From Deinococcales bacterium (GTDB lineage Bacteria; Deinococcota; Deinococci; Deinococcales; JAAFIG01): DNA of 64,000 nt. The stretch lies in assembly GCA_043778225.1 (NCBI GenBank), contig JAYWGM010000032.1, positions 1 through 64,000 on the forward strand, in the 5' to 3' direction. Position 1 is the stretch's first letter. The number at the start of each line of letters is the position of its first letter. A program made the position numbers and the translations under genes. The notes below the pieces were generated by a model. The model saw nothing but the letters and a program-made list of their open reading frames with translations, made no database searches and had not been told where the DNA came from. This document shows positions 1 through 63,648 of the stretch, one piece after another.

Positions 1-330
1 CGAGAAGCGCGAACAGCCCGCGAGGTGCTGTTTTGTGAGCAAGAACGACAGTTTGCCGTTCTTCAGGCAAACGAGAGTGATTAAGTTAATTCGGTATCAA
101 TTACCTCGATGGGATAGCTCACATCACGATTCAATCCATGACCGAAGGCTTTACGACCCACAACCAGCCAGCCAAGGCTTGGGCAATGCTCGAGCTAGAC
201 CAAAGCCTAAAACTCGAGGTTTTTGGTTTGGATACTTGGAAACTCGAGTTACCGCGCCGCAGTCTGCACTTGTGGCAAAAGCAGCCCAAGAATAACTGGC
301 TCGAGTTTTAAGGTGTTCTGCACATAACCC
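1..330 (+). pseudogene. Possible disrupted 3' end of a metallophosphoesterase-like gene (runs off the window)
   Basis: Frame 1 reads ...QFAVLQ then stops at 82-84. Another frame continues YLDGIAHITIQSMTEGFTTHNQPAKAWAMLEL, which recalls a calcineurin-like phosphoesterase C-terminus. Recognition is from memory only. Confidence 0.3.
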
Positions 331-986
331 AAAATCCCACCGTGCTTTTGCTCGAGATGATCCAACACTGTTTGCATCGTCTCGGGTTTAGCACTGAGGA
401 TGCTCAAGAACAGCGTCATGTCGTAGCCTTTTTCCAGTGCATCTTGGCGAAGTCGCTCGAGCAACGGCTGGGCTTGTTCGGTCAAGGCGTAATCGCTTAA
501 AAGTGCGGCGCGGGTCGCGCCTTGTAAGCCAGCCAGCAGCATCGAAATAATGCCCGTGCGGTCTTTGCCAGCCACACAATGCAGCAAAGTCGTATGGCTC
601 GAGTTTGCCACCACCGTCAGGGCTTGGCGGATGGCATCTTGGCAGAGTTCCAGCGCTCCGATATAGACCATCTCGAGCGGCGGAAAGGTTTTCTCTTGTC
701 CACTCGAGAATTGTTGCAGCACCGCAAACAACGGAATGTGATGGTAACTGACCCCAGCTTGGCTCGCTAACGGATTGGGATGCTCGAGAATTTCAGCCTC
801 GCTGCGAAGGTCAATCACGGTTTTGACCCCCATTTCCAGCAACTGCTCTAGGGCAGACGGGCTGAGGTTATGTGGCGATTCGCCACGCAGTACGGTCTTA
901 AATGTGGTTGTGCCGTGGTCGGTCTCGAGTCCGCCGAGGTCGCGGTAGTTAAAAATACCCTCGAGATGCACAATTCGGTCAGTCAT
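249..986 (-). CDS. Protein-tyrosine-phosphatase-family protein (PtpB/IphP-like)
   Basis: N-terminal NYRDLGG, IDLRS, and P-loop HCVAGKDRTG (HCxxGKDRTG). Confidence 0.9.
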   Translation of the reverse strand: MTDRIVHLEGIFNYRDLGGLETDHGTTTFKTVLRGESPHNLSPSALEQLLEMGVKTVIDLRSEAEILEHPNPLASQAGVSYHHIPLFAVLQQFSSGQEKTFPPLEMVYIGALELCQDAIRQALTVVANSSHTTLLHCVAGKDRTGIISMLLAGLQGATRAALLSDYALTEQAQPLLERLRQDALEKGYDMTLFLSILSAKPETMQTVLDHLEQKHGGILGYVQNTLKLEPVILGLLLPQVQTAAR

Positions 987-1064: not shown

Positions 1065-1664
1065 CTACCCGTATTTCTCGAGAAACGCTTCCATATCCCG
1101 AAAATCCATAAAACGCGCCTCGAGTTCGGCTCGAGTCCAGTGCCACCACTGAATTTGCTCGAGTTTTTCTTTTTCGGAGTCCGTAAATCTAGCCCGAATT
1201 GGCTTGGCTGGCACACCCGCCACGATCGTGTAGGCTTCGACATTTTTGGTCACGACCGCTCCCGCACCGATGGCTGCACCATTGCCAATGCTCACCCCGG
1301 GCAGCACCGTGACATTGTGTCCAATCCAAACATCGTGTCCGATGGTCACAGGATTTGCTTCGCGCCATAGAAAAAAATCGGTGTCGTCGGTCTCGGCAAA
1401 GCCGTATTGCTTGGCGCGGTAGGTCATGTGATGCGAAGTCGGGCGCTCGAGTGGATGATTGCCGGGGTTAAGGCGCACAAAACTAGCAATGCTGCAAAAT
1501 TTGCCGATACTCGAATCCATGACTTGGCTGTGCTGCATGATATAGCTGTAATCGCCAAGGACGGACTTATAGAATTTGACATCGTGGCTAATCTGTGTCC
1601 AAACGCCAAGGCTTGAGCCGAGGACTTTGGCGCTTGGGTCTACGGTCGGCTGCTCGGAAAGCAT
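1065..1664 (-). CDS. Hexapeptide-repeat acyltransferase, phosphonate-cluster type (CatB/Vat-like)
   Basis: IGKFCSIA, NPGNHP, IGHDVWIGH, GVPAK, WWHW. Likely start MLSEQPT at 1664. Confidence 0.85.
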   Translation of the reverse strand: MLSEQPTVDPSAKVLGSSLGVWTQISHDVKFYKSVLGDYSYIMQHSQVMDSSIGKFCSIASFVRLNPGNHPLERPTSHHMTYRAKQYGFAETDDTDFFLWREANPVTIGHDVWIGHNVTVLPGVSIGNGAAIGAGAVVTKNVEAYTIVAGVPAKPIRARFTDSEKEKLEQIQWWHWTRAELEARFMDFRDMEAFLEKYG

Positions 1665-1689: not shown

Positions 1690-2874
1690 TCAGGCAAACT
1701 CCAAAACTCGAGCTTGTGGACTTGGCAAGACTGGATGCCCCGCCCAGTAAATAATTTTACCTTGGCGCAGCGTTGCCACCACGCGATAATCGGCATGGTG
1801 GTCGAGCAGCACAATATCTGCCTGTCGTCCAACTTCGAGCGAACCACGATTGTGCATTCCGACCGCTCGGGCTGGGTTATAACTGACCAAGTTAATCGCT
1901 TCGGGTAACTCGAGCAAGCCTTTTTTGACAATCTCGAGCGCAGCGCGGAGCATCGCGGCGGGGTAATAATCGGAAGCCAGAATGTCCAGCACACCGTGTT
2001 CTAGCGCATCCAGCGCCGAAAGATTGCCTGTATGACTGCTGCCACGCAGGGCATTGGGTGCGCCCATAATAATTTGCATCCCCAGACTTTTAGCTGCCTT
2101 GGCTGCCTCGAGACTGACTGGAAACTCGGATAAACTTGCACCAACGCTTTGCACCAGTGCCACTTTTTCGGGGCTGTCGTCGTCGTGACTGGCGACGACC
2201 ATACCCGCTTGCCGTGCCAAGGCGGTAATTTCGCCAATCACATCCCAGGCTGGCGGTGCATCGGCTGCTTTTTGGATTCGCTCGCGCACATTATTTTCGA
2301 CTTCCTCACGGCTTTTATCCTGCCAACTCGAGATGTAACTAATAAACTTCTCGAGGTCGCGGTACTGCCCTTGTCCGGGCGTGTGGTCGTTTAAGGAGAC
2401 CATATCCACCATTCCATCAGCCAATAAATCCTTTAAGACCGGTGCAGCGCGGTGATTGGTGATTTCAAATCGGGCATGGATTCTCATATCGGTCAATAAA
2501 GAACCGCGCAAACCAGCCACGCCCTGTACGATTTCTTTGGCGCGTTCTTCGGAACGCAGGTGTTTAGCGCGGCTTTCCGAGAAGCTAATCGCCGCATACG
2601 CCGTGGTGATGCCTGCCGCTGCTAAGCGTTTATCCAACTCGAGCAACGAAACTTCGATCGGAAAGGCTGCACCCGGACGCGGCTCGAGTTCACGTTCGAG
2701 CATATCGCCGTGCAAATCCACCAAGCCCGAAATTGCTGTTAAACCCGAACCGTGCAAATCTGGCTTTTTGGCTGCGCCATCTATCACTTCGGCAATTTTG
2801 CCGTTCTCGAGCCGCAAACTGGCACTGGGCAGCACACAATCTGGCAGTACCAGTCGCACATCGCTAAGCCACAT
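1690..2874 (-). CDS. phnM: Ribose 1-methylphosphonate 5-triphosphate diphosphatase PhnM
   Basis: DLHGDMLE, HARFE, DHTPGQGQY, SHDD, MGAPN, SDYYP amidohydrolase motifs. Confidence 0.92.
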   Translation of the reverse strand: MWLSDVRLVLPDCVLPSASLRLENGKIAEVIDGAAKKPDLHGSGLTAISGLVDLHGDMLERELEPRPGAAFPIEVSLLELDKRLAAAGITTAYAAISFSESRAKHLRSEERAKEIVQGVAGLRGSLLTDMRIHARFEITNHRAAPVLKDLLADGMVDMVSLNDHTPGQGQYRDLEKFISYISSWQDKSREEVENNVRERIQKAADAPPAWDVIGEITALARQAGMVVASHDDDSPEKVALVQSVGASLSEFPVSLEAAKAAKSLGMQIIMGAPNALRGSSHTGNLSALDALEHGVLDILASDYYPAAMLRAALEIVKKGLLELPEAINLVSYNPARAVGMHNRGSLEVGRQADIVLLDHHADYRVVATLRQGKIIYWAGHPVLPSPQARVLEFA

Positions 2875-3592
2875 AATTTGCCTCCTCTGGCTCGAGAAAA
2901 CCTGTGTCGAGCGGCAAATCGCTGGTTAAAAGTATCTCGCGCTCGATTAAACCGCTTGCGTCTTCGGGGTGATGCAGCACGCCAATCATTGCTACACCTT
3001 CGTTTTTAAGTTGTGCCAAGCGTTCACGCAGCGCCACTCGAGCCGTGGCATCCAAAGACGCGGTTGGCTCATCCAGCAGCAACAAGCGCCGAGGTTGGAT
3101 TAAAGCTCGAGCCAGATTAACTTTTTGCTGCTCACCACCCGAAAACGTGGTTGGATACGCCTGCCAGAGTTCGGGTTTTAAGCCAAACATCTCGAGCGCC
3201 CCAGAAGCACGGCGCAGTGCAATTTCTTGTGGCACACCCGCAAATAAAAGCGGCTCTGCCACCAATTCGACCGCACTGACTCGCGGACGTGGGCGCAAAA
3301 ACTGCGTCACAAAACCAATTTCTTCTTGGCGCAGCAGCATCATGTCCACATCAGCAGCCCGAACCAAATCAATCTGCCCGTGTTTACTCTGGTACAGCGC
3401 TGCCCCGCTCGAGGCACGGTAAGAGCGGTACAACGTCCGCAACAAGGTGCTTTTGCCAACCCCATTTGCACCCGCCACCAGCAAAAATTCGCCACTCGAG
3501 AGGGTGAAGTTAAGGTTTGAGAACGCCAGCACTTCGCGCTCGAGTTGAAACAGAAAGAAATTTTTGGTTAAGTCATTGACCTCGAGAATCAT
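2864..3592 (-). CDS. phnL: C-P lyase ABC-type ATPase PhnL
   Basis: GANGVGKS, FSGGEQQKVNLAR, LLLDEPTASLD; operon position. Confidence 0.9.
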   Translation of the reverse strand: MILEVNDLTKNFFLFQLEREVLAFSNLNFTLSSGEFLLVAGANGVGKSTLLRTLYRSYRASSGAALYQSKHGQIDLVRAADVDMMLLRQEEIGFVTQFLRPRPRVSAVELVAEPLLFAGVPQEIALRRASGALEMFGLKPELWQAYPTTFSGGEQQKVNLARALIQPRRLLLLDEPTASLDATARVALRERLAQLKNEGVAMIGVLHHPEDASGLIEREILLTSDLPLDTGFLEPEEANYVA

Positions 3593-3601
3593 GGGTTACT
3601 C

Positions 3602-4420
3602 CTATAATTTAGCGTGTACCAATTGCTGGGTGTAGCTGTGCTGTGGGTCCTCGAGAACTTGGTCGGTCAGTCCTTGCTCGACCACCCGCCCGTTTCGCAT
3701 CACCATCACGCGGTCAGACAGGGTACGAATCACGCCGAGGTCGTGCGACACCACCAGCATTGCAATCCCAAGGTCGCGCTGTAATCGGCGCAGGGTGTCT
3801 AAGACCAGTGCCTGTACCGAAACATCCAAACCCGTGGTTGGTTCGTCCAGCAGCAGCAGCGCAGGTTTTAAGGCGATGGCTTTTGCCAGTTGCACTCGCT
3901 GCTGCATTCCGCCCGATAGATTTTTGGGTGGGTCGTCCATGCGGCTAATCGGAAATTCGCTGACCTCGAGACTGCGTTTGGCGGCGGCGCGTAACTTTGA
4001 AAAATTGCGCTCGCCCGCAATCACCAGCCGTTCGGCGACATTGCCACTGCTCGAGTTTTTCATCCGTAACCCAAGGTGCGGATTCTGGTAAACAATCCCG
4101 ATGTGATGCACCCGCAGTTGGCGGCGTTCAAAACGGCTGAGGTCAAACAAGTTCTGCTCGGCGTATTTGGGCAAATGAAGCCCAAAAACACCACTGTCTG
4201 GGTTTTCCTCGAGATTCAGCATCCGTAAAAGCGTGCTTTTGCCACTGCCACTTTCGCCAACAATCCCCAGCACTTCTCGCGGATAAAGTTCGACATTGAC
4301 ATCCTCGAGGGCAATCACGCTGCCATAGCGCTTATTGATGCGGCTGGCGGTTAGAAGCGGGGCGTGCTGCACCAAGCGCGGCGGCTCGAGGGCAATCTCA
4401 GTCGCGTAGGAAGCCATCAT
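3602..4420 (-). CDS. phnK: C-P lyase ATPase PhnK
   Basis: GESGSGKS, LSGGMQQRVQLA, DEPTTGLDVSVQA. Start placed after a GGAGG RBS. Confidence 0.9.
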   Translation of the reverse strand: MMASYATEIALEPPRLVQHAPLLTASRINKRYGSVIALEDVNVELYPREVLGIVGESGSGKSTLLRMLNLEENPDSGVFGLHLPKYAEQNLFDLSRFERRQLRVHHIGIVYQNPHLGLRMKNSSSGNVAERLVIAGERNFSKLRAAAKRSLEVSEFPISRMDDPPKNLSGGMQQRVQLAKAIALKPALLLLDEPTTGLDVSVQALVLDTLRRLQRDLGIAMLVVSHDLGVIRTLSDRVMVMRNGRVVEQGLTDQVLEDPQHSYTQQLVHAKL

Positions 4421-5318
4421 GGTAGAACCTCCCTTCTGAATCGTAATAGGTTGCGCCCAAAGCTCTCTCGGACAGGATTTTTTCGCCATACCCACTGTCG
4501 GATAATTCATATAAACTCGAGCCGTCTTCTTGTGGTAATTCGTTCATAAATTTTTGGGCTGCCCCAGTGCGAAAACAGACCATCCCATCCACATTTTCGG
4601 TTTTATATGGCACATCCTCAAACTCGAGCGGACGGACTTCGGTATAGGGTGGCACACAATACAGTCTTTTTTCGCGCCCTGCGCTCAGGATGGTTAGATG
4701 CGCCGCTTGGTGCAACATCGGCACATCCCAACGTGGAATCGGGCTGGGCGACATGATATAGCGCCTTGCTACCAAGACTGGATAACTCGCGCCTTGAATA
4801 ATTCGTTTGTAGCGCACCATTTGCTCGTAGAGTTTTAGCCACATCAGCCCGTAATCGGCATCGGCATGAAGTTCGGCGGCGGCGGCGCTGCTGGTTTCCA
4901 CACCGCGCAACGGTTCTGGTTCTGGTACTTGCAAAATTAAAACTTGTCCCTCGAGTAAACGCTCTTCGGGAATTCGGTGGCGCGATTGAATCAGGCTGGC
5001 TGCCAAAGTATCGGTGGTGGTTTGGGCGTTGGCAACTCGAGCAATAAAGCGGCGAATGTTGGCGGCATTGACACTATCGTCCGCCCCTTGGTCAATAATT
5101 TTGACCGTGCTGTGCGGCGCAACCAGTGTTAGCGTGACCTGCAAACCGCCCGTCCCCCAGCCCCGCGCCATCGGCACTTCTCGAGAGGCATACGGCACTT
5201 GATAACCCGGAATACAGATGCCTTTAAGGATTTTACGGCGCAACTCGCGCTTGCTGGCTTCGTCCAAAAACGCATAGGCATGGTCTTGGACTGGCTTGGT
5301 CAATTCGGCAAGGGTCAT
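4398..5318 (-). CDS. phnJ: PhnJ homologue (C-P lyase catalytic subunit) with degenerate Cys motif
   Basis: IPGYQVP, GWGTGGLQVT, DQGADD, QSRHRIPE, AGREKRLY are conserved; the C-terminal CxxC...C...C motif is mostly lost. Confidence 0.92.
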   Translation of the reverse strand: MTLAELTKPVQDHAYAFLDEASKRELRRKILKGICIPGYQVPYASREVPMARGWGTGGLQVTLTLVAPHSTVKIIDQGADDSVNAANIRRFIARVANAQTTTDTLAASLIQSRHRIPEERLLEGQVLILQVPEPEPLRGVETSSAAAAELHADADYGLMWLKLYEQMVRYKRIIQGASYPVLVARRYIMSPSPIPRWDVPMLHQAAHLTILSAGREKRLYCVPPYTEVRPLEFEDVPYKTENVDGMVCFRTGAAQKFMNELPQEDGSSLYELSDSGYGEKILSERALGATYYDSEGRFYHDGFLRD

Positions 5319-6403
5319 AAACTGACCTCCTCGAGTGGCATTTCGGCGGCTGGCGCTGTATTTTTTTGCTTTTTGACATCGCGCATGGCTTCGAGGCTGC
5401 TCTGAAACGTCACATAATGCGGCAACTTAAAGTGAATACAAAAACCGCTGCCCTCGACGGGTTCGGTGTGATACAGCACAAATTCTGGAGTCTGCGACGG
5501 ATGACTCGAGCGCTCCATGCTTAAATCGAGCATCGAAGCGGCAATCACTTTGACTTCGTTCCAGCCGAGCGTGGCACTAAATCCCAAGTCTAAACGCGGG
5601 TCTTGTGGGTCGCCAGCAAAATTCGTGACAATTTCACTCGAGCTAACCCGCACTTGCCCAGCGCTAAATTCTACTTTGGTACTCGGGTGGGTCAGCCGCA
5701 CATCGGCATAGCTCAGCCTGACTTCATTGATCGTCGGATGCACTGCGCCGTAGCCGCGCATATTGGCATAGCCGAGCGCTAAAATCCCACCGGTATCGCC
5801 TCGAGCCAGACTTTGCAATTTGTGCGCTCTCGAGACTGGAAAAAGCAGTGGTTCGCGGGTAATATCGGGAATGTCGCTTGGCACAGTCTGGTCGGGGCTA
5901 ATCTCGGGCAACAATCCAGCTTGGCGCTGCCATGCCGCCAAGGCTGGGAAACTCGAGCCAGAAATCTGTGGTGCTGGTGTGGTTTGGTGCGAGATACTTT
6001 GTCCGCGCAAAGCCTCCATGCGTAAAATTCGGTGGCTGTAATCGAGCGTCGGTCCAAGTACCTGTCCGCCGGGGATGTCCTTAAAGGCTGCCGAGACCCG
6101 CCGCACGGTTTTGAGGTCGTCCTGCTCGAGTGGCGTGGCGTAGGCGAGCCTTGGCTGGGTGCTGCGGTACGCCCGAAGCAGCAATACCGCTTCGTACAAT
6201 TCGCCGCCCGTCTGGGTAATCGCCAGCGCCGCCAGTTCGGGTGCGTACAACGATGCCTCGCCCATCACACGGTCTAGCAAGTACGGCAGCGCATCCTCGA
6301 TGGCTTTGACCCGCTCGAGCGAGAGTGTGCCGAGCAATTCGCGGTAAAAATTCTCGGCTTCGACAATTGCCTGTTCGCCACCTCTGGCTGCCACATATGC
6401 CAT
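5315..6403 (-). CDS. phnI: C-P lyase subunit PhnI
   Basis: YVAARGGEQAI, RAYRST, AFKDIPGGQVLGPT, HFKLPHYVTFQ. Confidence 0.93.
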   Translation of the reverse strand: MAYVAARGGEQAIVEAENFYRELLGTLSLERVKAIEDALPYLLDRVMGEASLYAPELAALAITQTGGELYEAVLLLRAYRSTQPRLAYATPLEQDDLKTVRRVSAAFKDIPGGQVLGPTLDYSHRILRMEALRGQSISHQTTPAPQISGSSFPALAAWQRQAGLLPEISPDQTVPSDIPDITREPLLFPVSRAHKLQSLARGDTGGILALGYANMRGYGAVHPTINEVRLSYADVRLTHPSTKVEFSAGQVRVSSSEIVTNFAGDPQDPRLDLGFSATLGWNEVKVIAASMLDLSMERSSHPSQTPEFVLYHTEPVEGSGFCIHFKLPHYVTFQSSLEAMRDVKKQKNTAPAAEMPLEEVSL

Positions 6404-6940
6404 TTACAGCACCTCGATTCGCGTGGTACGCGGGATTCCAACTAAACTCGAGCCATTGGTCAGGAGTAAATCCCAACCGATGGGATAGGACATAATCTGC
6501 TCGCGGGTCTGCCAAAACTCGGGTGGTACATCGATTTGCAGCTCGAGTGAACTTTGGATTCCCGCCCCCGTCAAGCGCACCAGCCGCCCAATCTCGAGTG
6601 CGGCGCTAACCACCAGCGTGGCTGACGTTTCTGGGGCAACTGGCGAACCGCGTTTTATCACGTGCAGCAAGTCGCTAACTGGTGTATTGGCACAAAAGAC
6701 ATAATCGGCTTCTTTGAGCGATTTCATTTTTGCCCCCAAAACACAAAGTTGTGGTTCGAGCGCAGCATCGTTGGTCCAAGCACTGGTCTCGAGGTCTAAA
6801 AGCGCTTGAGCAATCCTAAAAAAAGCATTTTCGTCTGGCTCGAGTTGTAGGGCTTGGACTCGTCCGGGATGTGCAAACGCCCACATCAGGGCATCAAACG
6901 TGGCGTGGGTTTTGGCTTCTAATTGGGTTTGTAAGGGCAT
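6404..6940 (-). CDS. phnH: C-P lyase subunit PhnH
   Basis: FDALMWAFAHPG, LLDLET, GSPVAPETSAT, YPIGWD, GIPRTT. Confidence 0.88.
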   Translation of the reverse strand: MPLQTQLEAKTHATFDALMWAFAHPGRVQALQLEPDENAFFRIAQALLDLETSAWTNDAALEPQLCVLGAKMKSLKEADYVFCANTPVSDLLHVIKRGSPVAPETSATLVVSAALEIGRLVRLTGAGIQSSLELQIDVPPEFWQTREQIMSYPIGWDLLLTNGSSLVGIPRTTRIEVL

Positions 6941-7374
6941 TAAAAGGTCTCCATTTGCACTCGAGTTGCCTCGACTTTAGAAAAAAGCAGATTGTGGGCT
7001 GCCAGTTGTGCGCTGTGGGCTGCTTCGAGAAATTGGCTTAGGCGCTCTGGAGCAATTTCGGTCTGCCACGCTAAATCGAGCAGCGCCACCGCCAAGGCTT
7101 GCTCGAGGTCGCGCCCAAGTACCGCCCCATAGCCAACAAAACTGTTTTGACGCACCTCGGCTTCGGCAACCAGCACTTCGCCCAGATGAAACAACGTGCC
7201 ATGAACCGTATCTCGAGCCGGCAGCATCACCAACCCAGTCCGATTTTGCACCACCTCAAGATTGCCGCTTTGCTCGAGCGCAGGCAGTAATTCGTCGGCA
7301 AGCGCTTTGACTTGGGGGGCAGGCGCGTGGGTCAGGATATTCAGGCTTTGGGCTTGGGTAAAAGTTGATTGCAT
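6940..7374 (-). CDS. phnG: C-P lyase subunit PhnG
   Basis: GLVML, FHLGEVLV, KVEATRVQMET. Start MQSTF follows AAGGA. Confidence 0.88.
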   Translation of the reverse strand: MQSTFTQAQSLNILTHAPAPQVKALADELLPALEQSGNLEVVQNRTGLVMLPARDTVHGTLFHLGEVLVAEAEVRQNSFVGYGAVLGRDLEQALAVALLDLAWQTEIAPERLSQFLEAAHSAQLAAHNLLFSKVEATRVQMETF

Positions 7375-10104: not shown

Positions 10105-11142
10105 ATGATTAAACGAATCATCACCGCCAAAGACATTGCGGCTCGAGTTGGAGTTTCGCAAGCATCAGTTTCGTATGCCCTCAGTCACCGCCTGGACAAA
10201 CGCGCTTTAATTTCTTCAGAAACCCGACTTAAAATACTGCAAGTTGCCGAAGAAGTCGGGTATTTCCCCAATGCCCAAGCCCAAGCCATTCGCACTGGAA
10301 AAACGGGTCTGCTGGCGCTCTGGGTACCCAATTTCACCAACAGTGTCTACCTTCGCACCATGCGGGGTATTCAAGAAGTGGCTTCGGAACATGGTCTGGA
10401 TGTGCTGGTCTATGGTGGAACTGGTATCAGGGGTATGGAAGCGGTGCTGCGTTCGTTTGGGCAACGGCGGGTGGATGGAGCAATCATGATTGCTCGCCCA
10501 CTAGACCAAACCGCCCAACAACTATTGGCACAACTCGAGTTGCCAATTGTTACCATTGGCGGCAGCATGACCTATCCAAACATAGATAGTGTACGAACCC
10601 ACAACGCCAAGGCTTTTGAACAAATGGTGCTGCATTTGGCGGCGCAAGGCTATCAGCGCATTGGACATATTTCTGGTCCACTGACCACCGCCACAGCCCA
10701 AGAACGTTTACAGGGTTATCGGCGTGGTTTAACTGTGGCTGGCTTACCCTACAAAAAAAATTGGATGCGCCAAGGAACATATAAATCTGGTTGTGCCGCT
10801 GGGTTAGCGCTTGAGTTGATTTGCCAAAAAACCCCACCTGATGCCTTGGTCATCGCCAACGACTTAATGGCAATCGAGGCGCTGCTGGGGCTGCACGATG
10901 CGGCTTGGCGAATCCCCCAAGATATGGCAATTGCTGGCTGTGATGATATTCCAGAAGCCGAAGTGGTACGCCCTCGGCTGACCACGATTCGTCGCCCGGG
11001 GTTACGGGCTGCCCAGGTTGCTATGAAACTTTTGCTCGAGCGCTTGGCTGGCTACCGTGGCGAATCCCGAACGGTCTGGTTGGATGCCGAAGTGGTGATT
11101 CGCGGCAGCACGATTCAAGACGCTCAAAACCATACGACCTAG
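10105..11142 (+). CDS. LacI-family transcriptional regulator
   Basis: N-terminal HTH (TAKDIAARVGVSQASVS), YFPNAQA hinge, periplasmic-binding-like domain. Confidence 0.93.
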   Translation: MIKRIITAKDIAARVGVSQASVSYALSHRLDKRALISSETRLKILQVAEEVGYFPNAQAQAIRTGKTGLLALWVPNFTNSVYLRTMRGIQEVASEHGLDVLVYGGTGIRGMEAVLRSFGQRRVDGAIMIARPLDQTAQQLLAQLELPIVTIGGSMTYPNIDSVRTHNAKAFEQMVLHLAAQGYQRIGHISGPLTTATAQERLQGYRRGLTVAGLPYKKNWMRQGTYKSGCAAGLALELICQKTPPDALVIANDLMAIEALLGLHDAAWRIPQDMAIAGCDDIPEAEVVRPRLTTIRRPGLRAAQVAMKLLLERLAGYRGESRTVWLDAEVVIRGSTIQDAQNHTT

Positions 11143-11249: not shown

Positions 11250-11344
11250 CCTTTAATAGATTGTCATGGTTATGTGACTTGCAGGTGGCTGACAAATGAC
11301 CATTAGATTTCCCGAAGACTAAAGAAGTCAAAAAGGCATCGGTC

Positions 11345-12136
11345 ATGATTCGTCTTGAAAATATCAATCATACTTACCCAAATGGAACTCATGCGCTGCG
11401 GGGTATCAACCTCGAGATTGGCGCAGAGGCATTTACGGTTTTAATTGGTCCGAGCGGTGCGGGAAAAAGTTCGTTGATGCGAATCTTAAATGGTTTGGTG
11501 CGCCCAAGTTCTGGACAGGTTTTTATTGATGGCTTAGAAGTCAGCCGTGCCAAAGCCAGCCAAGTTTTAGCTGCCCGACGCAAAATCGGTATGGTATTCC
11601 AGCAGTTTAACTTGGTTAAACGCCTGACTGCCTTAGAAAATGTGCTGATTGGACGGCTTGGTGTAATGCCAACTTGGCGCTCCACGATTCGTCTATACAC
11701 TCGAGAAGACCGCCAATTGGCGTTTGCGGCACTCGAGCGAGTCGGAATGCAGGATTATGCTTGGCAGCGCTCGGACACCCTGTCTGGTGGGCAGCAGCAA
11801 CGGGTTGGGATTGCTCGAGCCTTGGCGCAACAACCCAAACTGATTTTAGCCGATGAACCCATTAGCGCCCTTGATCCAAAATCCTCGGAGCAAGTCATGG
11901 GTTTGCTGCGCGACATTCAAAGTAAAGATGGAATTGCGGTGATTGCCAATTTGCATCATTTGGATGCGGTGCGTGAATACGCCGAGCGAGTCGTGGCATT
12001 GCAGCGCGGCACAGTGGTTTTTGATGGGCAACCCAGCGCCCTAACCGAAAGCGTGACTCGAGCCTTGTACTACGAAGAAGAAAAAGCTCTTCAATCCATC
12101 CCAGACATTATCCCCAATACTTTAATGACCGCCTAG
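11345..12136 (+). CDS. phnC: Phosphonate ABC transporter ATPase (second copy)
   Basis: Close paralogue of 9198-9983 with the same motifs. Confidence 0.93.
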   Translation: MIRLENINHTYPNGTHALRGINLEIGAEAFTVLIGPSGAGKSSLMRILNGLVRPSSGQVFIDGLEVSRAKASQVLAARRKIGMVFQQFNLVKRLTALENVLIGRLGVMPTWRSTIRLYTREDRQLAFAALERVGMQDYAWQRSDTLSGGQQQRVGIARALAQQPKLILADEPISALDPKSSEQVMGLLRDIQSKDGIAVIANLHHLDAVREYAERVVALQRGTVVFDGQPSALTESVTRALYYEEEKALQSIPDIIPNTLMTA

Positions 12137-12144
12137 GAGAAAAT

Positions 12145-13017
12145 ATGAAAAAAGTTCTTGTTGCCGCCTTTGGAATTGCCGCCCTCACTGCGCTTGGAGT
12201 CTCGAGCGCCCAAACCAACCGCGCTGATTGGCCCAGCGAAATCACGATTGCTACCGTACCCGTCGAGACCAGCCGCGATGCTACCGAACGCTTTAAGCCA
12301 TTCATTACTTACATGGAAAAGAATTTGCGCCTAAAAATCAATTTCCGCAATGGTGCGGATTACGCTGCCGTGATTGTCGCCATGGGTGCTAAACAAGTGG
12401 ATTTGGCATTTTTTGGACCCAGCAGTTATTTGGATGCCGAAGACCGCGCTAATGCCGAAGCCTTTGTCAAAGAAAACAGCATCTCGAGTGGTACAGGTTA
12501 CTACAGCCTTGTGCTGGCTAAAGCAGGCAGTAACTTAAAAACCATGAAAGATGCTCAAGGCGCAGAATTTGCTTTTGTAGACCCGAGCAGCACCAGTGGT
12601 TTTCGTGTCCCGATGTTTAGCTTCTGCACCGAACTTAAAATCGAACCAGAAACCTACTTTAAGCGCGTCTACTTTGCTGGCACACACGAAAACGTCATTC
12701 TTGGTATTGCCAATGGTAGAATTGCCATTGGTGCAACCAATGATGTCAGCTTAGATGCCGCGATCAACAAGGGAATCGTTAAAAAAACCGATTTCCAAAC
12801 TGTTTATAAATCCAAGAAAATCCCAGCTTCGCCCGTGGCTTACCGCAAAGACCTTCCCGAAAGCCTCAAAGCCCAGATTAAATCGGCATTTTTACGCTTT
12901 CGTGACCCAGCTTTTTTGAATGCCAGTGGAATCACTGGTTACGTCAGCACCTCGAGCAAAGACTACCAACCATTTCGTCAAATTAACGCCTATAGAAGCT
13001 CGACTTGCTTAAAATAA
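12145..13017 (+). CDS. phnD: Phosphonate ABC substrate-binding protein (second copy)
   Basis: Signal peptide, GADYAAVI, DPSSTSGF, AGTHE. Confidence 0.92.
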   Translation: MKKVLVAAFGIAALTALGVSSAQTNRADWPSEITIATVPVETSRDATERFKPFITYMEKNLRLKINFRNGADYAAVIVAMGAKQVDLAFFGPSSYLDAEDRANAEAFVKENSISSGTGYYSLVLAKAGSNLKTMKDAQGAEFAFVDPSSTSGFRVPMFSFCTELKIEPETYFKRVYFAGTHENVILGIANGRIAIGATNDVSLDAAINKGIVKKTDFQTVYKSKKIPASPVAYRKDLPESLKAQIKSAFLRFRDPAFLNASGITGYVSTSSKDYQPFRQINAYRSSTCLK

Positions 13018-13028
13018 ACTTCTTCTTC

Positions 13029-13060
13029 GCGTCTGCTAGGCGAATAACTTAGCAGACGCG
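13029..13060 (+). terminator. Intergenic hairpin after phnD2
   Basis: GCGTCTGCTA...TAGCAGACGC inverted repeat; may act in stabilisation or attenuation. Confidence 0.55.
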
Positions 13061-13128
13061 CCTTCCTCCTCTTTTACCTTGAAGACCTCGAGCCGATACC
13101 GCTCGAGGTCGCAACGTTAGGAACAACC

Positions 13129-13950
13129 ATGATTGCAAACCTCAATATCGAAGCACCCGCAAAAGTAGTGCAACAACGACTTTGGACTCGAGTTATCTGG
13201 CTTGGCATTGCTGGGCTGTTGTTTTGGGCAACTTTTGGCACAGAATTAAGTATTGCTAAACTCATTTCTGGTTTTGGCGAATCACAAAAACTCTTGTTTG
13301 GCACTACTGAACGCCCTGACAGTGGGTTTTTTCCACCAGACTTTACTCGAGGCTGGGTTTTTATTGACCAAATGCTTCTAACCGTCAAAATGGCAATTTG
13401 GGGAACGGTGCTGGCTGCCATGGCTGCCCTTCCTATTTCGATTCTGGCAGCCGCCAATACTGCCCCCAACAAAGTGATTTACCAAATCGCAAGGCGAATT
13501 TTAGATGTACTGCGCGGCTTAAATGAATTTGTCTTAGCACTGATTTTTGTGGCAGCCGTTGGCTTAGGACCCTTTCCTGGGATTCTGGCATTGGCGGTTC
13601 ACACCACGGGTGTGCTGGCTAAACTCTATGCCGAAGCCATCGAAGTCGTGGACACAGGGCAAATCGAAGCGGTACAAGCCAGTGGTGCAAATCCAATTCA
13701 AGTCTTTACGCACGCAATTTTCCCGCAAATTGTACCAACGGTTGTATCCATGACCTTGTACCGTTTTGAAAGCAATGTCCGTGCTGCCAGTGTACTTGGT
13801 TTGGTTGGCGCTGGTGGGATTGGATTATTTGTGACCGAAACGATGCGGAGTTTTAATTTTAAGGAAGCCAGTGCAGTTTTAATCGTGATTTTAGTAGCCG
13901 TGTTCTTGGTGGATTTTATCTCGGCTAAAATAAGGGCGAAACTAACATGA
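13129..13950 (+). CDS. phnE: Phosphonate ABC permease (second copy)
   Basis: ALIFVAAVGLGPFPGILAL, GLVGAGGIG. Confidence 0.92.
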   Translation: MIANLNIEAPAKVVQQRLWTRVIWLGIAGLLFWATFGTELSIAKLISGFGESQKLLFGTTERPDSGFFPPDFTRGWVFIDQMLLTVKMAIWGTVLAAMAALPISILAAANTAPNKVIYQIARRILDVLRGLNEFVLALIFVAAVGLGPFPGILALAVHTTGVLAKLYAEAIEVVDTGQIEAVQASGANPIQVFTHAIFPQIVPTVVSMTLYRFESNVRAASVLGLVGAGGIGLFVTETMRSFNFKEASAVLIVILVAVFLVDFISAKIRAKLT

Positions 13951-15074
13951 ATATCTGGCTCGAGAACGCAAAAATAGTGCTACCAGACCAAACTTTAGAG
14001 CATGGTCATGTTCGTTTAGAAGATGGTTTTATTGCCGAAATTACCGACGTGCTGCCGCACCATAATCTCAAAAGCCTCGATTTAAGTGGTTGTACTTTAC
14101 TGCCCGGGATTGTGGATATTCACGGCGATATGCTTGAACGCGAACTCGAGCCTCGTCCAAACACGCAGTTTCCCACCGAAATTGCCTTAGTCGAACTCGA
14201 TAAACGCCTAGCCAGTAATGGCATTACCACTGCCTATGCCGCCGTTGCCCTAGCCGATGGTCCTGGGCTGCGTTCCGAAGCTCGAGCCGAGAATTTAATC
14301 AAAGCCATCGAACAAGCCAAACACCAACTTCGTACCAAAATACTGATTCATGTGCGCTTTGAAATCAGTGTGCCAAGTGGCGTACCAATGCTGAAGCGCT
14401 TACTCGAGCAAAATCTTGTGCAAATGGTTTCGTTAATGGATCACACGCCCGGACAAGGACAATTTAGAAACCTCGAGTATTATGTCGAATACATGACCAA
14501 ATGGCTAGGCGGCAACCGCCAAGCTGCCGAGGAGACCGCCAAAGCTCACCTCGAGACCCCAATCAGTTGGGAAGTTGCCCAAGGTATTACCGATTTGGCT
14601 CGAGCCAAAGGCATACCGCTTGCCTCACACGACGATGACACGCCCGAAAAAATTGCGGTGATGCACCAAATGGGGGTGGGAATAGCCGAGTTTCCAGTCA
14701 CACTCGAGGCTGCCAGTGCCGCCCATGATATGGGCTTAAAAGTGATTATGGGCGCACCAAACGCCCTGCGTGGCGGCAGTCACTCAGGTAATTTATCGGC
14801 ACTCGAGGGCATAAAAGCAGGTGTGGTGCATGGCTTGTGTGCCGATTATCACCCTGCCAGTTTGCTTCATGCCGCCCTGCGAATGGCAAACGAAGGTATG
14901 GCGCTTCATCGAGCAGTTGAACTGATTACGTTGCAACCTGCACTAGCGGCTGGGTTAGACAATACTGGAGCAATCAAAACTGGGCTTCAAGCCGATTTAA
15001 CTTTGCTGCGCGGTTCTCGAGTCAGTGCAACTTGGCGGGCTGGGCAACTGATTTACGCTGATTCAGTGCATTAA
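13947..15074 (+). CDS. phnM: PhnM (second copy)
   Basis: DIHGDMLE, DHTPGQGQF, SHDDD, MGAPN. Confidence 0.9.
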   Translation: MNIWLENAKIVLPDQTLEHGHVRLEDGFIAEITDVLPHHNLKSLDLSGCTLLPGIVDIHGDMLERELEPRPNTQFPTEIALVELDKRLASNGITTAYAAVALADGPGLRSEARAENLIKAIEQAKHQLRTKILIHVRFEISVPSGVPMLKRLLEQNLVQMVSLMDHTPGQGQFRNLEYYVEYMTKWLGGNRQAAEETAKAHLETPISWEVAQGITDLARAKGIPLASHDDDTPEKIAVMHQMGVGIAEFPVTLEAASAAHDMGLKVIMGAPNALRGGSHSGNLSALEGIKAGVVHGLCADYHPASLLHAALRMANEGMALHRAVELITLQPALAAGLDNTGAIKTGLQADLTLLRGSRVSATWRAGQLIYADSVH

Positions 15075-15260: not shown

Positions 15261-15839
15261 ATGAACCCAATCAACGTGGCAACGATTCGACCTGCACTCC
15301 TTGCCCTAATGACCGCAGCCCTGACCATATCAGCCCTTGCTGCCAATCCTAGCTACCAAGTCGCCACCACCCCAGCCGCAACGGCTGAATTCAATTTCAG
15401 TGTGACCCTTATCCCTATTCCAGGTCGGATCAATGCCGTCAGCGCCAACCTTTACTTCGACCCAAAGAACCTTGGTAAAACCAGTGGCACAGTCAGTGTT
15501 GCCCTTGCCAAACTCGACACTGGAATAGGACTGCGCGACGAACACGGACGCGGCTTTCTAGGCGCAGAAAAACACCCCAATGCAATCTTTACCGTAACCA
15601 GTATCAGTGGCACAAAAACCCTCGAGAAGAACAAAGAAATCAAAGCCACCGCCAACGGAAAATTCAACATTAATGGCATTAACAAACCACTCAGCGCCCC
15701 AATCACCCTGAAATTCGATGGCACTCGAGTCAACGTTAGCACTGCTTTTAACATCACCCTTAGCGACCACAACATCAGCATCCCTGGTTCAGATCCAAAA
15801 GTCGCCGTCAAAGTCAACTTCACCCTCGAACCTAAGTAA
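15261..15839 (+). CDS. Secreted YceI-family protein
   Basis: Signal peptide, LDTGIGLRDEH, HPNAIF, GKFNINGI. Confidence 0.85.
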   Translation: MNPINVATIRPALLALMTAALTISALAANPSYQVATTPAATAEFNFSVTLIPIPGRINAVSANLYFDPKNLGKTSGTVSVALAKLDTGIGLRDEHGRGFLGAEKHPNAIFTVTSISGTKTLEKNKEIKATANGKFNINGINKPLSAPITLKFDGTRVNVSTAFNITLSDHNISIPGSDPKVAVKVNFTLEPK

Positions 15840-15891
15840 AAATCAGCAATCAAAAGCCCTCTCTCGTTCAAAAACCAATCAGGAGTTCATC

Positions 15892-16332
15892 ATGAAAATC
15901 AACCAAGTTCTGACATCCATCCTCACAGTTTTCGCCTTTGGTGCAGCCATACTTGCCAATGCCCAAATCATGCAATCTGACACCATGAGCAGCGTCTTAC
16001 AAAGCACCAAATTAATTGCTGTTGGCGCTCCAACCACTGGCACACTCGAGATTGTCAAATCAGCCAATGGCAACCGAGTTTTAAACCTGAAAAACATCAA
16101 AACCGAAGCAGGACCCGACCTTCACGTCTACCTGTACGCTGGCAATATCCCAAGTAAAGAAGCCAAGAACATCAAAACCGTTAAGTACGTAGATTTAGGC
16201 AAATTGGCGGCACCATTTAAAGGCAACTACAGCTATAAAATCCCAGCTAACACTAACCTCGAGCAATTCAAAAGCGTAGTCATCTGGTGCGACGTTGCCA
16301 AAGTGACCTTTGCAGGAGCAAAACTCAAATAA
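15892..16332 (+). CDS. Secreted DM13-domain protein
   Basis: GPDLHVYL, DLGKL, GNYSYKIP, SVVIWC; AGGAG RBS. Confidence 0.85.
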   Translation: MKINQVLTSILTVFAFGAAILANAQIMQSDTMSSVLQSTKLIAVGAPTTGTLEIVKSANGNRVLNLKNIKTEAGPDLHVYLYAGNIPSKEAKNIKTVKYVDLGKLAAPFKGNYSYKIPANTNLEQFKSVVIWCDVAKVTFAGAKLK

Positions 16333-16397
16333 CCAAATCGTGCTGCGTTCGTTTACCACCACTTTCTCAACTCGAGACACCTTTTAGGAGATTGATC

Positions 16398-16859
16398 ATG
16401 AATATCAAAAAAACCGTTGTTGCTTTTATCGCCGCTACCAGCTTTGCTGCTGCCGTAATCCCAAGTTTTGTTGCCAATGCCCAAACCATTCAAACCGTAA
16501 CCACTGTTGAAACTGTTCTGAACTTTGCAAAACTGACCAGCGTTGCCGCCCCAACCACAGGCACAGTCGCTATTGTCAAAAAAACCGATGGCAGCACTGT
16601 ATTGCGTCTACAAAACCTCAAAACCGAAGTTGGACCTGATTTACACGTCTACTTGTACGCTGCTGCGCTACCAAGCAAAGATGCCAAACCAGCCGATGTT
16701 AGAGCCGTCAAGTACATTGACCTTGGGAAACTCCCAGCCCCTTTTAGTGGTTACTACGAATATAAAATCCCAGTAGGCACAGACTTAAATGCCTTTAAAA
16801 GCGCCATCATTTGGTGTGATCTAGCAGGCGTTACTTTTGGTGGTGCAACCCTGAACTAA
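16398..16859 (+). CDS. Secreted DM13-domain protein (paralogue)
   Basis: GPDLHVYL, DLGKL, SAIIWC; AGGAG RBS. Confidence 0.85.
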   Translation: MNIKKTVVAFIAATSFAAAVIPSFVANAQTIQTVTTVETVLNFAKLTSVAAPTTGTVAIVKKTDGSTVLRLQNLKTEVGPDLHVYLYAAALPSKDAKPADVRAVKYIDLGKLPAPFSGYYEYKIPVGTDLNAFKSAIIWCDLAGVTFGGATLN

Positions 16860-20637: not shown

Positions 20638-22344
20638 ATGATTCAACCCGATTGGTGGATACGCCAAAAAGCCCTCGAAGAAGGCATGATTGAACCCTTC
20701 GCAGACCGACAAATTCGCAGTGGCGAAAATGGTGGGATTATCAGCTATGGGGTCTCGAGTTTTGGCTATGACTTGCGGGCAGCCAGAGAGTGGAAAATCT
20801 TTGTCAATGCGTTCAGTACAGTTGTAGACCCGAAAAACTTTGACCCTCGAGCCTTTATAGACTTTGAGGGCGACGAAGTGATCATCCCGCCCAACAGTTT
20901 TGTCTTGGCGCGGAGCATCGAATATATGCGAATTCCAGACAATGTGATGGTCGTGGCACTGGGAAAGTCCAGTTATGCCCGTTGTTTTAGCGCAGACACT
21001 CGAGTCGCACTGGTGGATGGTTCAAGCCCAACCCTCGAGGAGATGGCACACCGCGCCGAGAGTGGTGAGATGTTTTGGGGCTATAGCCTTAATCAGTATG
21101 GGCGGATTGTGGTTTCGCTTTTGGATGCACCGCGTTTTATAGGTAGAGATTCGCTGCTCGAGATTGTACTGGACAACGGTGAAACGATAAAAGCCACACC
21201 AGACCATCAATTTATTACGCGAGATGGTCGGGCGGTACTGGCTTCGGAATTACGCGCCAATGATTCTTTGATGCCACTGTACCGCAAGCCATTTCGCGGT
21301 TATGAAATGACCTACCAACCTGTCAATGGTTTTTATTATCCAACCCACCGACTGGCGGATGAATGGAATCTCGAGCAGGGTATTTACCCTCAGATGCCAA
21401 GCAGTCACCGACACCACAAAGACCACAACCGACGCAATAATAATCCGTGGAATATTGAACGAATGGATGCTTCGGAGCATCTTAGGATGCACAATGCCAA
21501 ATCGTACTTACGCCTCGAAGATGGCGGAGATTTTGACCCTGAATCCCACAGCCTTGCCATCAAAGATGCCTATGAGGTGCTGCGTCAAGATGATCTACGC
21601 TACCGAAAATTGTGCCAGCAGCAGCGTAAAAAAGCCAGTGATTTCTGGCAAGACCCCGTGTATGCCGAAACTCGAGCCAAATTACGCGCCAATCGGGCTG
21701 TTTTTTATACCCAAGAAGAACGTGAAATACAGCGCCAACGCATTACTGCTGCCTATGCCAACAACCCAGAACTGCGTTCAAAAATTGCGGATTTTAGTCG
21801 CGCAGCTTGGGCGCGAGATGACGGCACACGCCAAGCACAACAACGTGAAATTGCACGGCAAATTCGCATCCGAGCCGACATCACCGAAAGCACTGTTCGC
21901 CAAGCCCTTGATGCCACAGGTTCAATCCGTGGTGCAGCCCGTTACTTAGATGTTGACCGCAGTGCCTTTAGGCGCTTCCCACATATTTTACAGCAATTTC
22001 GAGGCACATCAGTTATCAATCACCGAGTTGTTTTGGTCAGAACCCTATCCGGCGAACACGACACCTACTGTTTAACTGTGCCAGAAGCAGGTAATTTTGC
22101 CCTTGAGGCGGGTGTTTTTGTGCATAACTGCGGAATTGTAGCAAATGTTACACCTTTAGAACCGGGCTGGGAAGGACACGTGACGTTAGAGTTTAGCAAC
22201 ACCACACCACTGCCCGCCAAGATGTATGCCAACGAAGGTTGTGTGCAACTACTGTTTTTTGAAGGACCAAAACCAGAAGTGACTTACCGCGACCGCAAAG
22301 GCAAATACCAAGGGCAGACGGGTGTGACCTTACCGCGCCTCTGA
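20638..22344 (+). CDS. dcd: dCTP deaminase interrupted by an intein
   Basis: [17 protein letters not shown]|intein|[27 protein letters not shown]; spliced product 186 aa. Confidence 0.93.
20983..22128 (+). mobile_element. Intein (382 aa) with HNH homing endonuclease
   Basis: Block A CFSADTRV, block B ATPDH, block G VFVHN followed by Cys; internal HRL...[15 protein letters not shown]. Confidence 0.92.
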
Positions 22345-58737: not shown

Positions 58738-59114
58738 CCCGTGCTGTTATGGCGTTGCTGCTGGCTGGTACGCCCCTGTGCATTGCTGCTCGAGCGGCAC
58801 AGGCTTGTGATTGCGATGATTGCGGTAAGCGTTCGTCTGGCTTGGCTCGAGGCTCAATCAGTGCCTTTAATCGCTTTGGTGTGGCTGTTCTCCATTACTG
58901 CCCTACTTGCACCAAACAAGCCCCGCCTTTGCTGAGTTTGTATGGTCTGAATGCTGTTTATATCAAGTCTGCCAAAGACCAGACTTTCAAGCCGTTGCCT
59001 GTCTCTGCCCCAGAACCAAAAGCCATTCAAAAAATCAACAGGAAAACCCAGTTTAGGCGCTTACAAGAACTTGGTCATGGCTTCCCGTGGCAACGTCAAA
59101 GGCGTTACTCATGA
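58734..59114 (+). CDS. Hypothetical protein with CxxC...CxxC (possible Zn ribbon)
   Basis: CDDC and CPTC; GAGG RBS; ATGA-coupled to the integrase. Confidence 0.55.
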   Translation: MTRAVMALLLAGTPLCIAARAAQACDCDDCGKRSSGLARGSISAFNRFGVAVLHYCPTCTKQAPPLLSLYGLNAVYIKSAKDQTFKPLPVSAPEPKAIQKINRKTQFRRLQELGHGFPWQRQRRYS

Positions 59115-63640: not shown

Positions 63641-63648
63641 ACATGACC

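What the first reader, a model, noticed from the sequence alone, without database searches (positions are those of the whole stretch)
4398..5318. C-P lyase whose PhnJ lacks the radical-SAM cluster and catalytic cysteines
Known: E. coli PhnJ uses Cys241/244/266 (CX2CX21C) to bind the [4Fe-4S]-SAM cluster, and Gly32 plus Cys272 for radical relay (…CAIC…VCSDTDYC). Seen: here the segment reads VCFRTGAAQKFMNELPQEDGSSLYELSDSGYG. Only the first Cys remains (C244>T, C266>L, C272>G by my manual alignment). The ORF is intact, Gly32 (IPGYQ) and RHRIPE are kept, PhnI keeps HFKLPH, and phnGHIKLM plus two transporters are complete. Other Cys residues appear beside Gly32 (GICIPG), in RLYCVPPY, and next to the PhnI His pair (GFCIH). 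Inference: a non-canonical C-P lyase with a different cofactor or radical source (possibly oxygen tolerant), or a complex repurposed for another reduced-phosphorus substrate. This is my best candidate for an undescribed system here.
Basis: partly seen in the sequence, partly recalled or inferred. Interest (0 to 1): 0.88.

Follow-up and report, generated by a model that had tools for sequence, protein, structure and literature searches.

The report
C-P lyase lacking iron-sulfur cysteines
This intact gene belongs to a widespread branch of the phosphonate-splitting enzyme PhnJ that has lost the cysteines its textbook radical chemistry needs, yet a hot-spring cyanobacterium carrying this version is reported to release methane from methylphosphonate, so there may be a second way to break carbon-phosphorus bonds.

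Summary
Confirmed. PhnJ (4398-5318, minus strand) keeps Cys241 but has Thr, Leu and Gly at E. coli Cys244, Cys266 and Cys272. It is not decay: 190 of 190 scored homologues lack them, dN/dS is 0.02-0.09, and the branch forms one split (98/96) on a tree built without the cysteine domain. It spans Deinococcota, Chloroflexota, Alphaproteobacteria and hot-spring Synechococcus. The PhnI/PhnJ histidine metal site and substrate pocket are invariant. No linked radical-SAM gene was found. It is the only PhnJ found in sampled Deinococcota and Chloroflexota carriers, but sits beside a canonical copy in 14 of 15 alphaproteobacterial carriers. Key lead: the PhnJ of Synechococcus JA-2-3B'a(2-13) (OS-B') is cysteine-less, and that strain is cited as releasing methane from methylphosphonate (primary paper not held). 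Best reading (0.45): a SAM/Fe-S-independent C-P lyase working at the histidine metal site. Main rival (0.27): non-radical cleavage of labile substrates. This scan noted the lineage four times before on other DNA; I found no description in the open-access library.

The parts
4398..5318 (-). phnJ of the cysteine-less lineage (306 aa)
   Evidence: model pLDDT 93.9, TM 0.95-0.96 (target-normalised) to E. coli PhnJ
4485..4577 (-). C-terminal mini-domain, residues 248-278: C248 (=Cys241) kept; T251, L272, G278 in place of Cys244, Cys266, Cys272
4977..4982 (-). PhnJ R113-H114 (E. coli Arg107, His108), contacts of the cyclic-phosphate ligand at the His/Zn site
   Evidence: 285 of 285 clade sequences; roles from PMC9947105 passages
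5315..6403 (-). phnI; H222, H324, H329 (E. coli His219, His328, His333) kept; lineage-enriched C322
6404..6940 (-). phnH
6940..7374 (-). phnG (start placed at the Met at 7374 by inspection; ORF call runs to 7476)
3602..4420 (-). phnK ABC ATPase (start approximate), Walker A/B and H-switch intact
2864..3592 (-). phnL ABC ATPase, Walker motifs intact
1690..2874 (-). phnM, triphosphate diphosphatase
   Evidence: TIGR02318 above cut-off
1065..1664 (-). hexapeptide-repeat acetyltransferase TIGR03308 (start approximate); also found in canonical alphaproteobacterial operons
   Evidence: 56 of 80 clade loci; canonical operons
249..986 (-). tyrosine-phosphatase-family protein (PF13350); candidate for processing the ribose cyclic phosphate (inference)
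   Evidence: also beside the operon in L051, L054, L068
7383..9983 (-). phnC-D-E transporter 1; PhnD cap residue Ser
10105..11142 (+). LacI-family regulator (also beside the Thermus pVV8 operon)
11262..11277 (+). Pho-box-like direct repeat (one mismatch to a recalled half-site consensus) upstream of the second phnC
11345..15074 (+). phnC-D-E transporter 2 and second phnM; PhnD cap residue Ser

Best explanation
A working second type of C-P lyase that breaks true C-P bonds, probably including simple alkylphosphonates, without a PhnJ-bound [4Fe-4S] cluster, SAM or Cys272. Shown from sequence: the transport, ribosylation (PhnGHIL), pyrophosphate release (PhnM) and ATP-driven opening (PhnK/L) parts are intact; the ribose-phosphonate pocket and the PhnI His219/His328/His333 - PhnJ His108 metal site are invariant; the cysteine mini-domain keeps its predicted fold with hydrophobic or small residues in place of the ligands. 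Inferred: the ribosyl phosphonate binds at the His metal site and ends as 5-phosphoribosyl 1,2-cyclic phosphate by attack of the ribose 2'-OH. Most speculative step: the C-P bond is broken homolytically at that site, for instance by one-electron oxidation of the metal-bound phosphonate by a redox-active metal in place of Zn, giving an alkyl radical that is quenched to alkane (an idea recalled from older chemical-model work, not tested). Such an enzyme would not depend on an oxygen-labile cluster, which fits its aerobic and oxygenic hosts and its retention beside the canonical enzyme in Alphaproteobacteria.
For: Loss is ancient, single and under purifying selection. [quoted passage not shown] The Thermus pVV8 GHIJ core has one cysteine and the Synechococcus core two within the aligned regions, too few for a three-Cys cluster. 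One named Synechococcus PhnJ even has Ala at Gly32 (P0350). Phenotype lead: P0348 (ABD01166.1) is cysteine-less and lies on a 3,046,682-base replicon, the size given for JA-2-3B'a(2-13) in a published table that scores it phnI/J/M-positive and negative for palA, phnA, W, X, Y, Z (PMC9381506 supplement); another table lists one 8001-base phn cluster for it, the same span as the cysteine-less operon in L136. Secondary sources cite that strain as growing on phosphonates and releasing methane or ethane and as having a Pho-regulated C-P lyase operon that its relative OS-A lacks. Phosphonate-specific genes flank some loci (PhnX plus TIGR03364 in 3 of 80, a TmpA-like dioxygenase in 1). A changing set of cyclic-phosphodiesterase-type genes flanks the operon, as expected if the product is still the cyclic phosphate.
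Against: No biochemistry exists for any member. The methane/ethane result comes from a paper I could not read; I know it from recall and from citations, I recall no knockout, and I recall that OS-A also grows on phosphonates without the operon, so growth alone proves nothing. I could not search the OS-B' genome itself for a second phnJ. No new universal metal ligand or redox residue was found: PhnI Cys326 is missing from the very sub-branch with the phenotype. The window's gene is in the other sub-branch, so the phenotype may not transfer. Co-occurrence with canonical phnJ in 14 of 15 alphaproteobacterial carriers fits a different substrate at least as well as a different condition.
Confidence: 0.45

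Rival explanations
1. Non-radical specialist. The Zn/His site acts as a Lewis acid and the ribose 2'-OH displaces a group that can leave heterolytically (activated phosphonates such as beta-oxo or alpha-hydroxy/amino types, phosphate esters or diesters, phosphoramidates), giving the same cyclic phosphate. The radical module was lost because these substrates do not need it.
For: All radical-relay cysteines lost, pocket kept. E. coli complex carried the cyclic phosphate at the His site when made without phosphonate (PMC9947105). Kept beside the canonical enzyme in 14 of 15 alphaproteobacterial carriers, 12 of 13 without the two centre genomes, against base rates of about 61% and 51% for any phnJ (kin not independent). 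PhnD caps are Thr/Ser/Gly, and Thr at this position is seen in the glycerol-phosphate binder GpxB. Phosphatases and phosphodiesterases are common neighbours.
Against: Cannot give methane or ethane from alkylphosphonates, which is cited for OS-B'. An ATP-costly machine is hard to justify for esters that phosphatases cleave. Gly cap is shared with canonical alphaproteobacterial PhnDs.
Confidence: 0.27
2. The radical is supplied in trans by an unlinked Fe-S or radical-SAM protein of the host; PhnJ provides only pocket and scaffold.
For: The complex opens widely on ATP hydrolysis (PMC9947105), which could admit a partner. G000 has one unassigned B12-binding radical-SAM gene (TIGR03960-like) on another contig.
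Against: No radical-SAM family among 180 neighbouring ORFs scanned, one CxxxCxxC match, in a 128-aa unassigned ORF, among the ORFs selected from 80 loci. The operon has moved between four phyla and onto plasmids as a unit without such a partner. The other 7 of 8 radical-SAM matches in G000 are housekeeping; G000 is 89% complete.
Confidence: 0.12
3. PhnJ is a catalytically dead scaffold: it docks PhnK/L and completes the PhnI site, and the pathway stops at, or hands on, a ribosyl phosphonate.
For: PhnJ is structurally required for PhnK binding and the His site; Gly32 is buried against PhnH, which explains its conservation (PMC7916636 passage).
Against: In sampled Deinococcota (23 carriers) and Chloroflexota (6 carriers) no canonical phnJ was found to finish the job; no conserved hand-off enzyme in the loci.
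Confidence: 0.08
4. Dedicated phosphite or hypophosphite oxidation: ribosyl H-phosphonate loses hydride at the Zn site, as alkaline phosphatase does (precedent seen only as a reference title).
For: C-P lyase is described as oxidising phosphite; P-H cleavage needs no carbon radical.
Against: The tyrosine cap that gives PtxB its phosphite specificity is absent from both window PhnDs and from all 68 non-E. coli PhnD rows aligned.
Confidence: 0.05
5. A decaying gene or an assembly artefact.
For: None found.
Against: dN/dS 0.036-0.084 against six relatives' loci and 0.022-0.088 in nine other pairs; the same state in 190 of 190 scored homologues; intact operons in four phyla.
Confidence: 0.01

Closest known systems
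E. coli PhnJ in the Phn(GHIJ)2K2L2 C-P lyase complex (EC 4.7.1.1; PDB 4XB6, 7Z15-7Z19)
   Same: Pfam family, fold (TM 0.95, 44% identity in the structural alignment), gene order GHIJKLM, His/Zn site, ribose-phosphate pocket, Gly32, PhnK/L ATPase motifs.
   Different: Cys244, Cys266, Cys272 absent in all 285 clade strings, Cys241 replaced by Asp or Ser in 29; a C-terminal extension in the main sub-branch; no phnN or phnP in the operon or found in G000.
Cysteine-keeping PhnJ of Chloroflexota and Deinococcota (L118-L131, L168-L170)
   Same: Closest in sequence (48-55% identity); share the ARGWG loop (Arg46) and, in several, the short PhnG tail.
   Different: Keep the C-terminal cysteines and fall on the other side of the 98/96 split.
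Cysteine-less phn operons of Synechococcus sp. JA-2-3B'a(2-13) and Thermus thermophilus HB8 plasmid pVV8
   Same: Same lineage and same cysteine loss; annotated simply as PhnJ and counted as ordinary phnJ in a global survey.
   Different: Sister sub-branch: shorter C-terminus, no PhnI Cys326; the Synechococcus operon lacks the acetyltransferase.
Cysteine-free paralogues of zinc-ribbon proteins such as ribosomal L31/L36 (recalled analogy, not tested)
   Same: Fold kept while metal-binding cysteines are replaced; kept beside the cysteine-bearing copy.
   Different: There the metal is structural; in PhnJ the cysteines are reported to be catalytic.

Membership tests
PhnJ family PF06007 | Profile match over the curated cut-off and PhnJ fold | tested here: met
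   399.5 bits vs cut-off 25; Foldseek E 7e-39, TM 0.95 to 7Z19_D (model built with an alignment that included cysteine-keeping rows)
E. coli-type radical-SAM C-P lyase PhnJ (EC 4.7.1.1) | CX2CX21C cluster ligands Cys241/244/266 | tested here: not met
   Only Cys241
E. coli-type radical-SAM C-P lyase PhnJ (EC 4.7.1.1) | Thiyl-radical Cys272 | tested here: not met
   Gly here; Ala, Gly, Met, Leu, Val and others in the clade
E. coli-type radical-SAM C-P lyase PhnJ (EC 4.7.1.1) | Gly32 | tested here: met
   284 of 285, one Ala; may be kept for packing
E. coli-type radical-SAM C-P lyase PhnJ (EC 4.7.1.1) | His/Zn site and substrate pocket (PhnI H219, H328, H333; PhnJ R107, H108, Q124, loop 47-50) | tested here: met
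   96 of 96 and 285 of 285
E. coli-type radical-SAM C-P lyase PhnJ (EC 4.7.1.1) | Fe-S- and SAM-dependent release of methane and cyclic phosphate | not testable with these tools
   Needs protein chemistry
C-P lyase operon | Complete phnGHIJKLM with transporter and intact PhnK/PhnL ATPase motifs | tested here: met
   order conserved across loci
C-P lyase operon | Downstream PhnP and PhnN | tested here: not met
   Not found in G000 with E. coli queries (genome 89% complete); other phosphoesterase families appear instead
PtxB-type phosphite uptake | Tyrosine cap over the P-H bond | tested here: not met
   Ser in both window PhnDs; Thr, Ser, Gly or Ala in related loci
E. coli-type 2-aminoethylphosphonate PhnD | Asp205 cap | tested here: not met
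   No Asp205 in clade-linked PhnDs
GpxB-type glycerol-phosphate binder | Arg223/Thr247 pair | tested here: inconclusive
   Thr at the cap in most Chloroflexota loci, Ser in the window; the Arg position was not aligned to GpxB itself

The most novel reading that the evidence does not exclude
There is a second, SAM- and Fe-S-independent and probably oxygen-tolerant chemistry for cleaving unactivated C-P bonds with alkane release, carried out at the PhnI/PhnJ histidine metal site. The four-cysteine site is then not the universal catalytic centre of C-P lyase, and part of the aerobic methane credited to phnJ comes from a different mechanism.
Probability: 0.35. Interest if true: 0.95.

Novelty: new variant of a known kind. 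Interest (0 to 1): 0.85.

Why it matters
The C-P lyase mechanism is an acknowledged open problem: the radical scheme has not been reconciled with the structures (PMC9947105). A natural lineage that keeps the histidine site but drops the cysteine site separates the two, and cultured carriers exist (OS-B', T. thermophilus pVV8, D. oregonensis, Rhizobium lusitanum). Either outcome matters: alkane release means new C-P cleavage chemistry; no alkane release means that phnJ counts used as a methane marker include genes doing something else (JA-2-3B'a is counted as ordinary phnJ in a global survey).

Tried and rejected
Replacement cysteines in PhnJ: 10 of 121 each; rejected. Tyr46>Arg as a clade novelty: also in 20 of 32 cysteine-keeping PhnJ; rejected. 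Co-loss of the PhnG C-terminal RG tail: the short tail also occurs in cysteine-keeping Chloroflexota (the profile there drifted onto PhnI, so its counts were not used); rejected. A linked radical-SAM, ferredoxin or other redox partner: none conserved. First fold with 42 rows was poor (pLDDT 55) and was discarded. First tree had the window row truncated and L118/L119 mislabelled; redone. In one search one clade locus (L035) was counted as cysteine-keeping by a pattern slip; one search supersedes it. PhnI-PhnJ complex prediction: weak support, 0.41 against best control 0.00; runs agreed in at least 84% of contacts, partner pLDDT at least 85; the mark was reached by 116 of 157 solved complexes and 2 of 215 mismatches, at 0.60 or under by 18 of 157 and both mismatches; a like complex is solved, so it shows likeness only and was not used. 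The 50%-cluster search returned mostly fragments and fusions and served only for outgroups. ESM Atlas returned only PhnJ clusters. DUF1045 search in G000 was empty but its control did not ring. No RNA holder listed. Pho-box-like repeats: 10 of 66 upstream regions had at most one mismatch against about 0.5% of shuffles, 9 of the 10 alphaproteobacterial; the region upstream of the window's first phnC was unremarkable. The residue filter of PMC9381506 (Table S2) was not found in the 12 of 51 supplement files searched.

Full report
Observation. The ORF at 4398-5318 (minus strand) encodes an intact 306-aa protein matching Pfam PhnJ. Against E. coli PhnJ, C248 aligns with Cys241, while Thr, Leu and Gly replace Cys244, Cys266 and Cys272. 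These cysteines are described as the cluster ligands and the attacking thiyl residue (passages of PMC7916636 and PMC11978286). The gene lies in phnCDE-GHIJKLM followed by a TIGR03308 acetyltransferase and a PF13350 phosphatase, with a LacI regulator, a second phnCDE and a second phnM on the other strand. It is the only PhnJ match in G000, which is 89% complete.

Not a one-off. All 120 best homologues listed (55-92% identity) share the state. Over both homologue searches, 190 of 191 proteins could be scored and none had Cys266, Cys272 or a CxxC. Among 317 distinct PhnJ strings held (some are one protein trimmed two ways), 285 are of this type and 32 keep the cysteines; position 244 is Thr or Ser in 283 of 285, position 266 Leu/Ile/Val in 283 (that grouping used Cys266, so this column is circular, but the tree is not). 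A tree of 37 selected rows built without the cysteine domain separates 23 cysteine-less from 14 cysteine-keeping rows by one split, support 98/96, with two sub-branches: Thermus/Meiothermus/hot-spring Synechococcus, and the main one that holds the window, Chloroflexota and Alphaproteobacteria. dN/dS is 0.036-0.084 between the window and six relatives' loci (two identical) and 0.022-0.088 in nine other pairs. A fold from a 121-row alignment is confident (pLDDT 93.9) and superposes on E. coli PhnJ (TM 0.95-0.96, rmsd 1.3-2.4 A), the mini-domain included; the alignment contained canonical rows, so this shows compatibility with the fold, not more.

Distribution. 13 of 18 genomes of the window's family have a match. 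Of 251 Deinococcota genomes, 23 have the clade type, 3 a cysteine-keeping type, 1 a weak fragment, none both. Of 301 Chloroflexota, 6 have the clade type, 14 a cysteine-keeping type, 2 fragments, none both. Five near-complete assemblies have one PhnJ each by family search. In contrast, of 301 genomes of Tropicibacter's order 184 have phnJ, 9 the clade type, and all 9 also a canonical copy; of 251 of Rhizobium lusitanum's order 128 have phnJ, 6 the clade type, 5 of them also a canonical copy. Types were assigned by identity and confirmed by sequence in spot checks. Sixteen of 215 plasmid records with a match are at 60-80% identity, among them T. thermophilus HB8 pVV8.

What is kept and what is new. 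The site where E. coli binds Zn and a ligand modelled as the ribose 1,2-cyclic phosphate (PMC9947105) is invariant: PhnJ Arg107, His108, Gln124 and loop 47-50 in 285 of 285; PhnI His219, His328, His333 in 96 of 96. PhnK/L motifs are intact. Gly32 is kept in 284 of 285, but it is buried against PhnH and is Ala in one named Synechococcus protein (P0350). PhnI Cys326 is in 91 of 96 but not in Thermus or Synechococcus; within the aligned regions their GHIJ cores hold one and two cysteines. No three-cysteine cluster can therefore be built in that sub-branch. Other fixed changes (PhnI Trp279, Ser339) are listed; their positions in space could not be measured here.

Neighbourhood. In 80 genome loci the order phnGHIJKLM is conserved and the acetyltransferase is present in 56. 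Of 180 unassigned neighbours scanned (within three genes of the operon, at least 130 aa, one per cluster), none was a radical-SAM family; two were Rieske oxygenases in unrelated positions. Phosphoesterases of different folds take turns beside the operon: a metallophosphoesterase in 11 loci, a 2H-like protein in 6, a PhnPP-like PHP protein, a metallo-beta-lactamase fold, a weak TIGR03223 match, YmdB in Thermus, PF13350 in the window; I infer that the product is still a cyclic phosphate. PhnX with TIGR03364 (3 loci) and a TmpA-like dioxygenase (1 locus) point to true phosphonates. Linked PhnDs have neither the PtxB tyrosine cap nor E. coli's Asp205, which argues against phosphite. G000 has no PhnP or PhnN by these queries, and 7 of its 8 radical-SAM matches are housekeeping.

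Phenotype lead. Searching with the Thermus protein returned a 52-member cluster of hot-spring Synechococcus/Thermostichus PhnJ. Member P0348 (ABD01166.1) has no Cys244, 266 or 272 and lies on a 3,046,682-base replicon, the genome size given for Synechococcus sp. JA-2-3B'a(2-13) in the supplement of PMC9381506, which scores it phnI/J/M-positive and negative for the other six catabolic markers. The supplement of PMC5955973 lists one phn cluster of 8001 bases for it, the span of the cysteine-less operon in L136, whose PhnJ is 99% identical to P0348. Held papers cite this strain as growing on phosphonates and cite Gomez-Garcia et al. 2011 for methane from methylphosphonate and for ethane; OS-A lacks the operon and cannot grow heterotrophically on phosphonates in the dark. 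That paper is not held. My recollection of its abstract is that OS-B' releases methane or ethane in the light, OS-A does not, and both grow on phosphonates as phosphorus source; I recall no knockout. This is correlative, second-hand evidence from the sister sub-branch, but it is the only phenotype and it raised the radical reading above the non-radical one.

Mechanism. Shown: everything for uptake, ribosylation and binding at the His site is conserved, and the Fe-S/thiyl module is gone with no linked replacement. Inferred: product is the cyclic phosphate. Open: how the bond breaks. Methyl carbanion loss is chemically implausible (general knowledge), so alkane release would need a radical; I favour one generated at the His metal site (0.45). 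If the OS-B' result has another cause, heterolytic cleavage of labile substrates is likeliest (0.27). In-trans radical supply (0.12), scaffold-only (0.08), phosphite (0.05) and decay (0.01) follow.

Novelty. Ten searches of the open-access library gave no title, abstract start or passage read that describes a cysteine-less PhnJ lineage; one paper calls PhnJ a small family of nearly identical sequences. I read part 1, passages and the Discussion of PMC9947105; part 1 and passages of PMC12718374; passages only of PMC11978286, PMC5700983, PMC12704751, PMC7916636, PMC9600594, PMC11358556, PMC11259786, PMC11227571, PMC10574752, PMC6962044, PMC5955973, PMC11665274, PMC9381506; and supplement rows of PMC5955973 and PMC9381506. 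Subscription literature, including the original structure and mechanism papers, was not available, so earlier mention cannot be excluded. This scan's notes record the same lineage four times on other DNA; a word search for the OS-B' link found nothing. Verdict: a real, conserved new variant of C-P lyase that fails the defining radical-SAM test; interest 0.85.

Noticed in passing
window 20638-22344 (+): dCTP deaminase gene interrupted by an intein (Pfam DCD 3-117, Intein_splicing 124-497).
   Followed up: no
window 15261-16859 (+): A YceI-like gene and two DM13-domain genes follow the second phn cluster.
   Followed up: no
window 62396-63652 (-) and 59087-60217 (+): A copper type II monooxygenase-like protein and a phage-type integrase near the window's end.
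   Followed up: no
P0249: A short PhnJ fragment with only the first cysteine and a different C-terminal sequence; possibly an independent loss of the cysteines. Not placed on a tree.
   Followed up: no
L118 (G682:C547): A cysteine-keeping-type PhnJ in which Cys244 appears replaced while Cys241, 266 and 272 remain: a possible intermediate state.
   Followed up: partly
L107 (Haematobacter massiliensis plasmid pOT1-5): A canonical and a cysteine-less phn operon lie about 14 kb apart on one plasmid among insertion elements.
   Followed up: partly
L140 and P0350: A 93%-identical Synechococcus-type operon at the same hisIE-flanked position; P0350 has Ala at Gly32.
   Followed up: partly
G265; G1032: G265 carries two clade-type phnJ copies; G1032 has five phnJ matches, one of clade type.
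   Followed up: no
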